Below are positions 35,201 through 38,200 of a stretch of 64,000 nt of DNA, piece by piece; within the stretch, counting starts at the first letter, position 1, and every line of letters begins with the position of its first letter. Source of the stretch: Rhabdothermincola salaria (GTDB lineage: Bacteria > Actinomycetota > Acidimicrobiia > Acidimicrobiales > Acidimicrobilacustridaceae); NCBI RefSeq assembly GCF_021246445.1, contig NZ_JAJQXW010000001.1, positions 496,001 to 560,000 of the forward strand. Direction: 5' to 3'. The position numbers were made by a program.

Positions 35201-38200
35201 GGGCGATCATGGTCCGCAGCTCGGTGATGGGATCGAGTCCGTCGGGGATGGAGGTGAACGACTCGTCGGCCAGCATCAGGAACACCCCGATGCCGAGGGC
35301 GTGCTTGGAGCCGAACAGGCGGTGGATCTCACCGGCGGAGATGCCGGCAGCGGTGGCCACCTCTTCGATGCTGAGCTCCTGCCATGGCCGTTCGGTGAGC
35401 AGCCCTCGGGCGGTCGCGGCGATGTCGAAGGGGGTGACGACGCGGTCGTGGGTGTGGGCGAACGCCGTCATCTGGCTCTGGGGGGTGGTGCGGCCATGGC
35501 GGACGCGCTCGCCGTCGGAGGGGAAGCGGGTCATGAGGCCCGCCACGACCGGCAGGTCGGCGCCGTCGTCCTGCATGCGGGTGAGCGTGATGAGCATGGC
35601 GAACGCCGCCCAGGAGTACAGCTCGACGGGAGCACCCTCGGGGTCGATGAGGTGGCGAGCCGCGAAGGCGTCCATGAAGGTGGAGTAGAGGGCGGCGAGG
35701 TTGTCCATGGTCACCGGGGGACGGGCCTCCCGGCCCCAGCGGGTGAGCATCAGCTCCGACGCGGCGACCGCTCGCTTCTCGGTGATGCGGTATTGGCGGC
35801 GGAGCTTCTCGGCCACCACCGGGTCGTCGAGCTTGGCCAGCATGCCCAGGCGCACCCGGAGGGCGGGGTCGTCGACCACGGTGCGCAGCTGCATCTGGCA
35901 GGCCTGCTCGAACTGGGCGTGGAGGTCGCCGTCGCCCAGGGCCATCTGGTTCATGAGGTCGACGACGGCGGGGTCGTAGCCGTCGGCGGTTGGGTCGGTG
36001 ATGTGGTCGACCAGCTCGTCGAGGTACTCCTGGGTGGTGCTCCAGTAGGCGTAGAAGGTGGCCCGGGTGATGCCGGCCGCCTTGGCCAGCCGGGAGACGT
36101 TGAGCCCGCCGAAGAGCTCGGCGGGCGGAGTGTCGATCCACAGGTCGAGGCCGGCCTGGAGGACCTTCTCACGTGTGGTGGGGGGGGAGGACGGGTTCGG
36201 CACGGCCCCGACTATACAGGACTGTTCACTAGACACTGATGTCTAGTGCAACGCTCGCTCGTGCTCATTGACCAGGGCGTCAGCGTGCGGTTGTCTGGCC
36301 ACGTGCCGGCGGCCCCGCCGTCGACACGACCGGCTCCGTCCCAGGTCCGTCGCTCACTTCGGTGGGTGAGGTGCCGGGGACAGGCCGGGGCTGGACCGTC
36401 CGGATCACTCCGGGCGCCGGTCGCACTGCGTGCGAGGCGCAGCTCGGCTCGTCATCTGGGCGGCGCGGGCCGAGCGTGCCTCGACGTGGGCCCTGAACCG
36501 GCGACAGCCTCCTTCACCGCCGCCCGGACTCGCTCGAAGCGGCTCGCCCGAACCACGCGTAGTTGTCGGGTTAGGGCGTCGACAGGTGACGCTGTTTCCT
36601 GACAGGTTCGCCGGTGGGGTGTTGTTGTCGGGTTAGGGCGTCGACAGGTGACGCTGTTTCCTGACAGGTCCGCCGGTGGAACGCGGCTACTCGTGCTGGG
36701 GGGCGGGTGGATGGGCGGCGGGGTGAGCGTGTCGGGAGGACCGCACGGCGTTGCGGAGGGTCGCCACGACCCGCCCGGGCTGGTGCCAGACGTCGACCTC
36801 GGCGATCTCGAGCACGGTCCAGCCGCTGGCGCGGAGCCGACCGAGGCGGACCTGGTCGCGCTCGCGGTCGACAAGGCTGCGGTGGTACAGCTCGCTTTGG
36901 ATCTCGACGATGACGGTGGCCTGGCGATGGGTGTAGTCGACCCGTCCGATCACGCCGCCGTCGTCGCCGATCGTCACCTGGCGCTCGAAGCCGGCGACGT
37001 CGTGGTCCCGGAGGATCTGCTCGAAGCGGTGCTCGAGGTTGGAATCGGTCGGCCGGTAGTCCGGATCGCTGCGGTCCTCGAGGATCGAACGCATGGTGCG
37101 GATCCCGGGACGGCCGCGACCTTGCAGATCCTCGAGCATGGCGAGCAGATCGCGGTAGGTGGTGAGCCGCAGGCTCAAGCACCGGTCCGTGAGGCGGGCG
37201 ACGCGATCGGGGTGCACACGGGCGGCGAGGTCGAACAGGGTGCGGGCCGCCGTGGTGACCCGCAGCCCGTCGATCACGGTCACGTGGCCGACGTGGAACC
37301 TCGTGGAGGTGTGGCTCACGGGGGTCCTCGGGTCACGGGCGCGCCGGACCCGCATCACGTGAGGGGGGAGCAGAGCGAACCCGCCGAACCCGAGGACCGC
37401 GGCGGCGGAGGACGTGGCGAGGGCCGCATCATCGCCCTCACGGAGTAGTGCGGCCATGGCGGATCGGCGTTCGGTGGGCGGGGCGCTGACGAAGGACCAG
37501 ACCCGCCTGGTGGCGCTGGCGATCTCGCCGGTCTCCCGCCAGCGACGGAGGCTGTCACGGCCAAGGCCGGCCTCCCGGGCCTGGGCCGAGGTGAACAGCC
37601 CATGCTGGCCGGCCGCGATCTCGCGGACTCGGGTCCTTCGGTCGTCCTTGGGGTGATGGGGTTCACTGGCCAGGATCGCTGGGAGTGGCCCCGGCGGGGT
37701 CGGTATGACCCAAGGGTTCGGCGTGGCATCGTCCATCTCGACTCCCTGGGACGGGAAGTGGTGGACGGCACGGCCGCCGATCGCCGGAGTCCATCACTGG
37801 AAGCACGCAGTGACAAGGGCACGTTCGGGCGACCGACACATCGAGGCTCGGCTCCTCGCTCGAACCGCGCGTAGTTGTCAGGGTTGGGCGTCAACAGGTG
37901 ACGCCCTTTCCTGACAGGTTCGCGAGGGCCGGGAAGCCGGGCAGGTCCGGCTGGGAGGGAGACTCCTGGGATCGGCCTCGAGCGGAGTCGGGGGTGAGGC
38001 GTCAGGGGGTGAGGGAGCGGCCGATGATCTCCTTCATGATCTCGGTGGTGCCGCCGTAGATGGTCTGGATGCGGGTGTCGAGGTAGGCCCGGGCGATGGG
38101 GTACTCGAGCATGTAGCCGTAGCCGCCGTGGAGCTGCACGCAGCGGTCGACGACCCGCTTCTGCAGCTCGGTCGTCCAGTACTTGGCCATGGCGGCCTCC

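What a model noticed while it worked through the whole genome (the two positions that open the first line are those of the whole stretch)
36558..37922. Nuclease gene (AbiEi_4 HTH + DUF559) bracketed by the palindromes that are scattered through the genome
The single-copy gene g0485 (C1:532687-533736) encodes an HTH plus Vsr/DUF559-type nuclease and is bracketed by matching ~53-nt palindromes that also occur as 30 further solo intergenic copies. Homologues in related genomes are bracketed in the same way by their own palindrome types, which are likewise dispersed there. Gene and palindromes therefore form one system, comparable to REP/RAYT but with a different nuclease fold.
Evidence so far: - Pfam: AbiEi_4 8e-7, DUF559 8e-6, MTES_1575 2e-5. 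Single copy. - Flank-to-flank match of 70 nt at 90%. - Type 2: 33 of 33 copies intergenic. - Relatives: 28 of 31 informative loci bracketed. - Controls: 3 of 400 random genes here; 3 of 17 distant homologues, 19-32 nt only. - Solo copies of the bracketing types: G010 20, G575 14, G596 15. - All 24 genomes with TTCTKGC-type palindromes have the gene, against 17 of 47 without. - No Y1/RAYT transposase.
(Added by a program. Inside this text positions count along the whole contig: contig position 496,001 is position 1 of the stretch shown here. "Call 12" and the like, gene names such as g00115 and contig names such as C1 are that model's own, and its searches are not shown. The text may have been shortened before it was handed on; [...] marks where a part breaks off. 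The agent that wrote the report below was given it as the finding of a first reader that could run no searches.)

Follow-up and report, generated by a model that had tools for sequence, protein, structure and literature searches.

The report
Nuclease gene bracketed by its own palindromes
A gene for a DNA-binding nuclease sits between copies of a 54-base palindrome that is also scattered through the genome, and its relatives in other bacteria are framed in the same way by their own palindromes, so gene and palindromes look like one selfish-DNA system built on an enzyme type not known for this role.

Summary
Window 36687-37736 (-) encodes a 349-aa protein made of an AbiEi-type DNA-binding module and a Vsr/EDxHD (DUF559) nuclease. 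All catalytic positions are conserved.

- **In this genome.** Three copies of a 54-nt imperfect palindrome flank the gene. The genome holds 33 copies and a single gene.
- **In relatives.** 40 of 60 informative homologue loci in the same order have matching flanks. The same holds for 3 of 157 random genes in relatives and 3 of 399 here.
- **Specificity.** Each homologue has a different palindrome. Where tested, that type is also dispersed in the same genome and not found in the other genomes searched.
- **Geometry.** The downstream copy starts a median 3 nt after the stop codon. The upstream copy ends about 53 nt before the start codon.

The coupling is therefore real. How it works is not settled. 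A REP/RAYT-like mobiliser is my best reading. A homing-type gene that targets palindromes is the main rival.

Evidence against a simple REP/RAYT analogy:
- Three other palindrome families here have no cognate gene.
- The gene is not inherited vertically within the genus.
- Only 6 of 29 phylum-wide homologues are bracketed.

My searches found no prior description.

The parts
36687..37736 (-). Gene for a 349-aa AbiEi-type wHTH module (about residues 32-207) fused to a Vsr/EDxHD (DUF559) nuclease (about residues 228-330)
   Evidence: ORF. Pfam. PADLOC AbiEi 4.9e-28 over residues 32-207. AlphaFold model pLDDT 89.6. Foldseek: 6Y8Q AbiEi, 1ZEL Rv2827c, 3R3P I-Bth0305I, 3HRL. Conserved E235, D267, E278, H285, D294.
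36557..36611 (+). Palindrome copy L1 (type 2), outer unit of the doublet downstream of the gene. With its 14-nt 5' flank (from 36543) it matches R1.
36626..36673 (+). Palindrome copy L2 (type 2), inner unit of the doublet. It ends 13 nt from the stop codon.
   Evidence: The same doublet form (second unit beginning GTGTTGTTGTC) recurs at contig C1:51334/51405.
37869..37923 (+). Palindrome copy R1 (type 2), 133 nt upstream of the start codon. With its 14-nt 5' flank (from 37855) it matches L1.
   Evidence: (DNA fold -21.7 kcal/mol, z -7.35)
41209..41325 (+). A further type 2 doublet (41209-41263 and 41271-41325), one of the 30 copies away from the gene

Best explanation
The gene and the palindromes are one selfish-DNA system.

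**The protein (inferred).** It is a site-specific endonuclease. Its AbiEi-type winged-helix module reads the two arms of its own ~50-bp palindrome, probably as a dimer. Its Vsr/EDxHD domain nicks or cuts there.

**The unit.** The compact arrangement palindrome, ~50 nt, gene, palindrome-at-the-stop-codon is the autonomous form.

**The scattered copies (inferred).** The single and doublet palindromes are non-autonomous copies. Their spread into intergenic DNA depends on breaks made by the protein and on host repair or replication. That makes it a REP/RAYT-like or MITE-like relationship with a different enzyme.

**Turnover.** Gene and palindrome type arrive together and co-diversify, and the gene is easily lost while the palindromes linger.

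**Shown:** the coupling, its specificity, the geometry, the protein fold with an intact active site, and lineage-specific gain of the palindromes.

**Inferred:** binding, cutting, and any role of the protein in copying the palindromes.
For: **Enrichment of the bracket.** 40 of 60 informative homologue loci have a flank match of at least 36 bits, against 3 of 157 random genes in relatives (Fisher 5e-25) and 3 of 399 here.

**One palindrome type per gene.**
- All proteins are at most 68% identical to one another, and every palindrome is different.
- G010's bracketed genes have four different types, with about 30, 20, 4-5 and at most 3 solo loci.

**Specificity to the genome.**
- The G010, G027 and G001 types are each found only in their own genome among the 5 searched.
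- Type 2 has 20 pattern matches in G000, against background counts in 40 relatives, including the 4 congeners (0-3; G007 has 6, mostly not palindromic).
- TTCTKGC-type palindromes at 3 or more copies occur in 11 of 28 gene-bearing and 0 of 13 gene-lacking relatives (p 0.008, relatedness not corrected).

**Fixed geometry.** The downstream copy starts a median 3 nt after the stop codon (IQR -14 to 24). The upstream copy ends a median 53 nt before the start codon.

**Palindromes are lineage-specific insertions.**
- At C1:73667 the two convergent genes are 2-10 nt apart in G001, G002 and G004. G000 has about 125 extra nt there, including the palindrome.
- The congeners lack the palindromes on both sides of the SDR gene.

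**The enzyme is plausible for the role.**
- E235, D267, E278, H285 and D294 are at least 90% conserved and map onto Vsr E25, D51, H69 and D97 (paper passages).
- The nearest solved nuclease by fold, I-Bth0305I, is a homodimer that footprints ~60 bp around a pseudopalindrome (abstract of PMC3239194).
- AbiEi proteins bind inverted repeats (abstract of PMC7319586).

**Hairpin constraint.** 10 of 25 stem pairs of type 2 show changes on both sides.

**Doublets.** Doublets are a dispersed unit in their own right, as expected if the two ends of the element can travel without the gene.
Against: - G000 has three more palindrome families (40, about 32 and 5 copies) and no second family gene or remnant. 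The gene-less type 1 looks more uniform than type 2 in the listed copies (not measured).
- G001's type has only one solo copy, and G010's type D at most three weak ones.
- Only 1 of 31 type 2 sites carries the gene, and no second copy exists, so neither gene mobility nor trans-mobilisation is seen directly.
- A nuclease alone cannot transfer strands, and no recombinase was looked for beyond Y1_Tnp.
- Flank orientation is mixed: 19 direct, 11 inverted, 13 ambiguous.
- Outside the order only 6 of 29 top homologues are bracketed, so the family does not need palindromes.
- Ordinary genes (SDR, LysR, a 207-aa ORF) are also bracketed in G000. The palindromes cluster: 7 copies lie within 8.4 kb around the gene.
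- In three of the five flank pairs compared with their solo copies (G000, G010 types A and B), the flanking copies are each other's closest relatives. This fits duplication at insertion as well as it fits this model.
Confidence: 0.45

Rival explanations
1. Homing-type selfish gene. The palindromes are older, independent REP-like elements. The nuclease gene is a free-standing homing-endonuclease-like element that recognises one palindrome type and gets copied into or beside it by repair. That duplicates or recruits the target on both sides. The protein does not spread the palindromes.
For: - The nuclease domain's best structural match is a true homing endonuclease, I-Bth0305I (3R3P, TM 0.71-0.78).
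- Gene distribution is patchy and fast-turning. Copies in the same genus sit at other loci or were not found.
- The gene sits at the edge of a 13.5-kb variable segment.
- Flanking copies are often each other's closest relatives: identical in G010 type B, 97% over 115 nt in type A against at most 93% for any solo copy, and in G000 they share 14 nt beyond the palindrome.
- Palindrome families exist here without any gene.
- Most family members elsewhere have no bracket.
Against: - Homing leaves target halves, not two whole copies. Eleven loci have clearly inverted flanks, one of them a perfect 49-nt non-palindromic inverted repeat (L048).
- Type 2 was not found in the congeners, so in this lineage it is no older than the gene.
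- No genome searched has TTCTKGC-type palindromes without the gene.
- Only one of 31 available type 2 sites is occupied.
Confidence: 0.27
2. Regulatory reading. The flanking palindromes are operator and terminator sites of a solitary AbiEi-like autoregulated nuclease, for example a defence or toxin-like gene. The scattered copies are unrelated REP-like elements that merely share the binding motif.
For: - The N-terminal 200 residues are a full AbiEi module (PADLOC 4.9e-28; 6Y8Q).
- AbiEi proteins autoregulate through inverted repeats in their promoters (abstract of PMC7319586).
- The upstream copy lies about 53 nt before the start codon.
Against: - No AbiEii toxin is found in the genome. The neighbours are a TetR-family gene and an acyl-CoA dehydrogenase.
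- This reading does not explain the same palindrome at the stop codon.
- It does not explain why the genome-specific dispersed copies are of the same type.
- It does not explain the covarying stems.
Confidence: 0.12
3. Chance or hot-spot co-location. Gene and palindromes both accumulate in permissive intergenic DNA.
For: - The palindromes cluster around this locus.
- Four genes in G000 are bracketed by same-family copies where about 0.3 per family would be expected (my rough estimate).
Against: The bracket is seen in 40 of 60 homologue loci against 3 of 157 and 3 of 399 control genes. It involves a different palindrome type at each locus and fixed distances to the gene ends.
Confidence: 0.03

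Closest known systems
REP/REPIN-RAYT systems (Proteobacteria)
   Same: - A gene that is single-copy per repeat type, flanked by the very palindromes that are scattered extragenically.
- Several gene/repeat pairs can coexist in one genome.
- Doublets occur as a dispersed unit.
- Repeats lie mostly between convergent or tandem genes.
   Different: - The enzyme is an AbiEi-wHTH plus Vsr/EDxHD nuclease, not a Y1 HUH transposase. No PF01797 match is found in the genome.
- The host is Actinomycetota (Acidimicrobiia-like by best hits).
- The palindromes are 40-70 nt long.
- Inheritance is not vertical within the genus.
- Flank orientation is mixed.
EDxHD homing endonucleases (I-Bth0305I, PDB 3R3P)
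   Same: - A Vsr-like catalytic fold with the E, D, H, D residues.
- A separate N-terminal DNA-binding part.
- I-Bth0305I is a homodimer with a ~60-bp footprint on a pseudopalindromic site (abstract).
   Different: - This gene is free-standing and chromosomal, not in an intron or intein of a phage gene.
- The DNA-binding part is AbiEi-type, not NUMOD.
- It is flanked by two whole copies of a repeated palindrome rather than by the halves of a unique target.
AbiEi antitoxins of type IV AbiE toxin-antitoxin systems (6Y8Q, Rv2827c 1ZEL)
   Same: - Residues 32-207 match AbiEi models end to end and match by fold.
- The family binds inverted repeats (abstract).
   Different: - There is no AbiEii partner next to the gene or anywhere in the genome.
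- A nuclease domain is fused at the C-terminus.
MITEs and their autonomous insertion sequences; IS200/IS605 with hairpin ends
   Same: - One coding element and many short non-coding copies of its ends.
- Ends that fold as hairpins.
- Type 2 hairpins are better formed on the lagging-strand template. I recall that strand as the active one for IS608; I read no paper on this here.
   Different: - No DDE or HUH transposase.
- No target-site duplication could be seen.
- The gene is single-copy.

Membership tests
REP/RAYT system | The enzyme is a Y1 (HUH) tyrosine transposase, Pfam Y1_Tnp | tested here: not met
   The protein has only AbiEi_4, DUF559 and MTES_1575 matches. There is no PF01797 match anywhere in G000, while the control genomes do match.
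REP/RAYT system | The gene is flanked by the repeat type that is dispersed in the same genome | tested here: met
   - G000: 3 flanking copies and 30 others.
- G010 types A, B and C.
- G027.
- G001: only 1 solo copy.
REP/RAYT system | Vertical inheritance, with long persistence of one gene/repeat pair in a lineage | tested here: not met
   - The closest homologue is 45% identical. The congener G001 has a 41%-identical gene at another locus with another palindrome. No gene was found in G002 and G004, which are 77% and 75% complete.
- Type 2 was not found in the four congeners.
REP/RAYT system | The enzyme cleaves and rejoins REP DNA | not testable with these tools
   Needs biochemistry.
Vsr / EDxHD (DUF559) nuclease superfamily | The catalytic residues Glu, Asp, His, Asp (Vsr E25, D51, H69, D97) | tested here: met
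   - E235, D267, H285 and D294 are at least 90% conserved in 59 sequences and align to those Vsr positions. Residue roles are taken from passages of PMC3239194.
- Position 280 (Vsr H64, I-Bth0305I N208) is Q here and Q or D in close relatives.
Vsr / EDxHD (DUF559) nuclease superfamily | Vsr-like fold | tested here: met
   - Foldseek: 3R3P (TM by target 0.71-0.78), 3HRL (0.72), 1VSR (0.53).
- Profile against PDB: 3HRL 5e-11, 3R3P 1e-5.
- DUF559 scores 26.1 bits against a cut-off of 20.6.
Homing endonuclease (as a way of life) | The gene lies inside its own unique target site, or in an intron or intein, and empty alleles are cleavable | tested here: inconclusive
   - The gene is free-standing, with whole palindrome copies on both sides.
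- No empty allele of this site was available. The congeners differ over the whole 13.5 kb to the left.
AbiE type IV toxin-antitoxin system | AbiEi two-domain antitoxin fold | tested here: met
   PADLOC AbiEi 4.9e-28 over residues 32-207. 6Y8Q E 4.5e-5 and 1ZEL.
AbiE type IV toxin-antitoxin system | An adjacent AbiEii (DUF1814) nucleotidyltransferase toxin gene | tested here: not met
   The neighbours are a TetR_N gene and an acyl-CoA dehydrogenase. There is no PF08843 match in G000.

The most novel reading that the evidence does not exclude
This would be a second, independent invention of the REP-and-mobiliser partnership. A Vsr/EDxHD nuclease fused to an AbiEi DNA-binding module recognises its own ~50-nt hairpin and drives its spread in Acidimicrobiia and other Actinomycetota. 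It may act on the hairpin extruded in the lagging-strand template, as the replication-linked polarity of type 2 hints. Each of the many divergent paralogues has co-evolved with its own palindrome, which would give a natural library of long-site nucleases and their matched targets.
Probability: 0.35. Interest if true: 0.85.

Novelty: new variant of a known kind. Interest (0 to 1): 0.74.

Why it matters
**An open question becomes testable.** REP-like palindromes are common in bacteria, but only the GTAG class has a known partner enzyme, RAYT. [quoted passage not shown]

**A candidate partner.** A tightly coupled, co-diversifying nuclease/palindrome pair in Actinomycetota offers a candidate partner of a different fold. 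It also assigns a role to a very common protein of unknown function: AbiEi_4-DUF559 matched in 163 of 301 sampled genomes of the phylum. Ten of those 301 genomes are flagged unpublished.

**Many matched pairs for experiments.** The many enzyme/site pairs, each with a site of about 50 bp, can be tested directly.

Tried and rejected
**Searches for close relatives and reads**
- The window protein alone found no close relative in genome contigs or metagenome contigs. I therefore have no empty allele and no orthologous locus.
- I spent the last genome-contig scan on the neighbouring acyl-CoA dehydrogenase. It named only distant relatives, mostly Acidimicrobiia MAGs at 72-80% identity. It served only to place the organism.
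- No sequencing run holds more than 10% of the locus's sampled words, and no RNA holder is listed.

**Predictions that gave nothing**
- The homodimer prediction gave no verdict (score 0.36, mark 0.42).
- The promoter and terminator consensus scan found nothing in this high-GC DNA.

**Analyses that showed no signal**
- Protein identity and palindrome similarity correlate only weakly (Spearman 0.09 over 776 pairs). All pairs are too diverged for a co-evolution test.
- The flanking hairpins have no consistent polarity relative to the gene's strand: upstream 18 antisense against 15 sense, downstream 17 against 10 (for loci, for counts).
- The better-folding strand of type 2 does not follow the direction of read-through transcription. 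A 3'-UTR RNA role gets no support from this.
- No common outer motif came out of a naive end-aligned count. By eye many types carry CTGG...CCAG near the stem base.

**A correction of my own reading**
- I first read the '1 TGA' flags as pseudogenes. They occur where the alignment runs past residue ~336, so they are most likely the genes' own stop codons.
- By my ORF extraction, 60 of 65 loci have an intact ORF of 280-420 aa.

**Side checks**
- The T4 palindrome pair at C2:142449/143156 and the neighbouring ORFs showed nothing related.
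Full report
**What is at the site.**
Window 36687-37736 (-) is an open frame of 349 aa. To its left, downstream of the stop codon, lie two tandem copies of an imperfect palindrome: L1 at 36557-36611 and L2 at 36626-36673. To its right, 133 nt upstream of the start codon, lies a third copy, R1 at 37869-37923. The repeat finder reports a direct match of 69 nt at 88% between 36543-36611 and 37855-37923. The match covers the palindrome plus 14 nt on its 5' side. 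No other copy in the genome shares those 14 nt. As single-stranded DNA, R1 folds at -21.7 kcal/mol (z -7.35). L1 and L2 fold less well, and clearly better on the + strand than on the - strand, because several stem positions are G-T pairs.

**The palindrome family in this genome.**
The genome (G000) has 3.9 Mb, 7 contigs and 72% G+C. Iterated nhmmer converges on 33 copies. An outer stem (CTGTCGG...CCGACAG) and an inner stem (GCGCC...GGCGC) are conserved. The six pairs between them are paired in only 48-76% of copies. Ten of the 25 stem pairs show changes on both sides.

My gene calls are crude, based on GC3. By them, 28 copies are clearly intergenic. Five overlap only the first part of a longest-possible ORF. 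Eleven lie between convergent genes. The gene is single-copy by tblastn. A family HMM run over all six frames finds no second copy or remnant.

**The protein.**
- Pfam gives AbiEi_4 and DUF559 over their cut-offs and MTES_1575 below its cut-off.
- PADLOC's AbiEi models match residues 32-207 nearly end to end (4.9e-28).
- An AlphaFold model built on 59 homologues has pLDDT 89.6.
- Foldseek matches the N-terminal 200 residues to the AbiEi antitoxin 6Y8Q and to Rv2827c (1ZEL). It matches the C-terminal 100 residues to the homing endonuclease I-Bth0305I (3R3P, TM by target 0.71-0.78), to NGO0050 (3HRL) and to Vsr.
- A profile of the family also finds 3HRL, 3R3P and Vsr by sequence.
- E235, D267, E278, H285 and D294 are at least 90% conserved.
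- In the profile alignment, E235, D267, H285 and D294 fall on Vsr E25, D51, H69 and D97, which form the EDxHD motif. E278 falls on the extra conserved acidic position. Residue roles come from passages of PMC3239194.
- Position 280 is Q here and Q or D in the closest relatives.

The active site therefore looks intact. There is no AbiEii toxin next to the gene or anywhere in the genome, and no Y1 transposase.

**The comparative test.**
The window protein finds homologues in 28 of 41 genomes of the same order, often several per genome. The best is only 45% identical, and the best in the same genus 41%.

What I fetched and dropped:
- I fetched 69 loci covering 70 of the 88 non-own matches. The 18 left out are two short fragments and 16 of the lowest-scoring matches.
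- Five fetched loci gave no tblastn hit at E 0.01 and were dropped.
- Four loci were cut by contig ends. Two of those four were nonetheless positive.

In each locus I compared 400 nt on either side of the gene with blastn-short.

| Set | Flank match of 36 bits or more |
|---|---|
| Informative homologue loci, all | 40 of 60 |
| Best locus per genome | 20 of 26 |
| Size-matched random genes, 20 x 20 kb from six of these relatives | 3 of 157 |
| Other random genes in G000 | 3 of 399 |

One of the three positives among the relatives' random genes is an IS481-family transposase with its inverted repeats. Fisher's test for 40/60 against 3/157 gives 5e-25. The loci are not fully independent, but every one carries a different repeat.

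Of the 43 loci with a match (own locus and two cut loci included), about 32 have a repeated unit that is a clear imperfect palindrome of 39-72 nt.

**Geometry.**
Across those 43 loci the downstream copy starts a median 3 nt after the stop codon (IQR -14 to 24). The upstream copy ends a median 53 nt before the inferred start codon (IQR 21 to 107). The two copies are clearly direct in 19 loci, clearly inverted in 11, and ambiguous in 13 because the unit is nearly symmetric. One locus (L048) has a perfect 49-nt inverted repeat that is not itself a palindrome.

**Specificity and dispersal.**
- No two proteins are more than 68% identical, and no two loci share a palindrome.
- The flanking type of G010's best gene occurs at about 30 loci of G010, mostly as 115-nt doublets. 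It occurs in none of four other genomes.
- G027's type occurs at about 17 loci of G027 only.
- G001's type occurs at the two flanks and at one other place.
- A second G010 gene is flanked by two identical TTCTGGCATGCG... palindromes. Twenty copies match the pattern in that genome.
- Two more G010 genes have types with about 4-5 solo loci and at most 3 weak ones. The remaining two have no clear flank match.
- The type 2 pattern has 20 matches in G000. The 40 relatives, including the four congeners, show only background counts of 0-3; G007 has 6 hits, mostly not palindromic.
- TTCTKGC...GCMAGAA palindromes reach 3 or more copies in 11 of 28 gene-bearing genomes and in 0 of 13 gene-lacking ones (p 0.008, confounded by relatedness and genome size).

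**Evidence that the palindromes were gained in this lineage.**
- At C1:73667 the stop codons of two convergent genes are 2-10 nt apart in G001, G002 and G004. G000 has about 125 nt more there: a C-rich stretch, the palindrome and a G-rich stretch.
- At C1:848060 the congeners have 56-65 nt where G000 has about 140.
- The SDR gene at C1:1978091-1979014 is also bracketed by type 2 copies (48 bits). It is a resident gene in conserved synteny in all four congeners, and they have no palindrome on either side. That bracket therefore arose by two separate insertions.
- Precise insertion borders and target duplications cannot be read at this divergence (73-83% identity).

**What speaks against a simple REP/RAYT analogy.**
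- G000 has three more palindrome families: type 1 (TTCTTGCATGG..., 48 nt, 40 copies), type 3 (GTCGCTGGCGCTCC..., 74 nt, about 32 copies, some partial) and type 4 (65 nt, 5 copies). It has only one family gene.
- Type 1 brackets a LysR gene and a 207-aa ORF.
- The palindromes cluster. Seven copies of types 1 and 2 lie within 8.4 kb around the gene.
- The gene sits at the right edge of a 13.5-kb segment (window 24425-37991). In G002 that segment is replaced by 13.8 kb of other DNA between the same conserved anchors. No empty allele of the gene's site could be examined.
- A profile search of 301 genomes of the phylum finds the family in 163, usually in several copies. Ten of the 301 are flagged unpublished. 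Of the 29 top loci from other families, only 6 are bracketed (p 5e-4 against the controls). Three of the 23 negatives (L194, L196, L200) come from unpublished genomes.
- The bracket is thus a trait of part of the family, concentrated in the window's order.

**An unexpected polarity.**
On contig C1 the type 2 hairpins fold better on the + strand up to about 810 kb (11 +, 1 -, 2 equal). Beyond that they fold better on the - strand (1 +, 9 -, 2 equal) (p 3e-4, or 9e-4 when linked copies count once). Cumulative GC skew peaks at about 810 kb. The better-folding strand is therefore the leading-strand sequence, that is, the lagging-strand template.

Type 1, in the same genome, shows no such pattern, so general mutation bias is not a sufficient explanation. 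From memory, this is the strand on which IS608-type elements act; I read no paper on that here. The polarity does not follow read-through transcription.

**Reading.**
The coupling of gene and palindrome is as well supported as sequence comparison can make it. My best mechanism (0.45) is an endonuclease that reads its own ~50-bp palindrome through an AbiEi-type module and cuts with a Vsr/EDxHD domain. The palindrome-gene-palindrome unit would be the autonomous element, and the solo and doublet copies its non-autonomous derivatives.

Two known relatives make this plausible. I-Bth0305I is a homodimer with a ~60-bp footprint centred on a pseudopalindrome (abstract). AbiEi proteins bind inverted repeats (abstract).

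The main rival (0.27) is a homing-type gene that targets palindromes spread by other means. It is favoured by three things: the flanking copies are so often each other's closest relatives, gene-less palindrome families exist, and most homologues in the wider phylum have no bracket. A purely regulatory reading (0.12) and chance (0.03) fit the data poorly.

**Prior work.**
Full-text searches found no paper that links this protein family to palindromic repeats. The searches were:
- DUF559 with 'palindrom' (3 papers, none relevant)
- DUF559 with 'repetitive extragenic' (none)
- DUF559 alone (25 papers, 22 listed, none on repeats by title or abstract start)
- EDxHD with 'homing endonuclease'
- RAYT, REPIN and Actinobacteria
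- MTES_1575 and AbiEi_4
- 'extragenic palindrom' with Vsr, endonuclease and flanked (none)

What I read of individual papers:
- Di Nocera et al. 2013 (PMC3733652): abstract and term search. It does not mention Actinobacteria.
- PMC3710099: passages only. It names the MTES_1575 nuclease only as a domain of a large HEPN protein.

Subscription journals and supplements were not searched.

Noticed in passing
window 18969-19013, 19031-19075, 30969-31014, 31543-31590, 39214-39261, 44872-44916: A second palindrome family, type 1 (TTCTTGCATGG...CCATGCAAGAA, 48 nt), has 40 copies in the genome, often as doublets 62 nt apart. It has no cognate nuclease gene here and was not found in the four congeners. 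It resembles the type that flanks a homologue in G010.
   Followed up: partly
contig C1, all 26 type 2 copies; window copies included: The strand on which type 2 hairpins fold better switches at about C1:810 kb, where cumulative GC skew peaks. The better strand is the lagging-strand template. Type 1 shows no such polarity.
   Followed up: partly
window 24425-37991: A 13.5-kb segment lies between anchors conserved in G002 and is replaced there by 13.8 kb of other DNA. It holds ordinary genes (dehydrogenase, STAS/anti-sigma/sigma factor, two alpha-amylase-family genes, a double TetR) and no integrase or transposase in the ORFs scanned.
   Followed up: partly
window 39164-41425: A 2.3-kb segment with an alpha-acetolactate decarboxylase gene, ending at the type 2 doublet. 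G001 lacks it and has only about 70 nt between the two flanking genes.
   Followed up: partly
G000 outside the window, e.g. C1:318845-318918, C1:1593467-1593540: A 74-nt inverted-repeat family, type 3 (GTCGCTGGCGCTCC...GGAGCGCCAGCGAC), has about 32 whole or partial copies, often in pairs 100-370 nt apart.
   Followed up: no
G000 C2:142449-142513 and C2:143156-143220; also C2:24954, C3:147634: A 65-nt near-perfect palindrome family, type 4, has 5 copies. Two of them are 640 nt apart around non-coding-looking DNA.
   Followed up: partly
flanks of type 2 copies, e.g. C1:73667, C1:488624, C1:848060: Many type 2 copies have a C-rich stretch on one side and a G-rich stretch on the other, outside the conserved 54 nt. 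The inserted unit may be longer than the palindrome, or the target may be biased.
   Followed up: no
G000 C4:80786-87175 (-): A 2130-aa open frame carries a weak DUF559-like stretch near its C-terminus (E 0.048 against the family HMM). The window protein's only NCBIfam hit is the C-terminus of the anti-phage protein ProA.
   Followed up: no
L091:11420-12406 (G035): A control gene with a cupredoxin domain is flanked by a 111-nt direct repeat at 93% that is not a palindrome.
   Followed up: no
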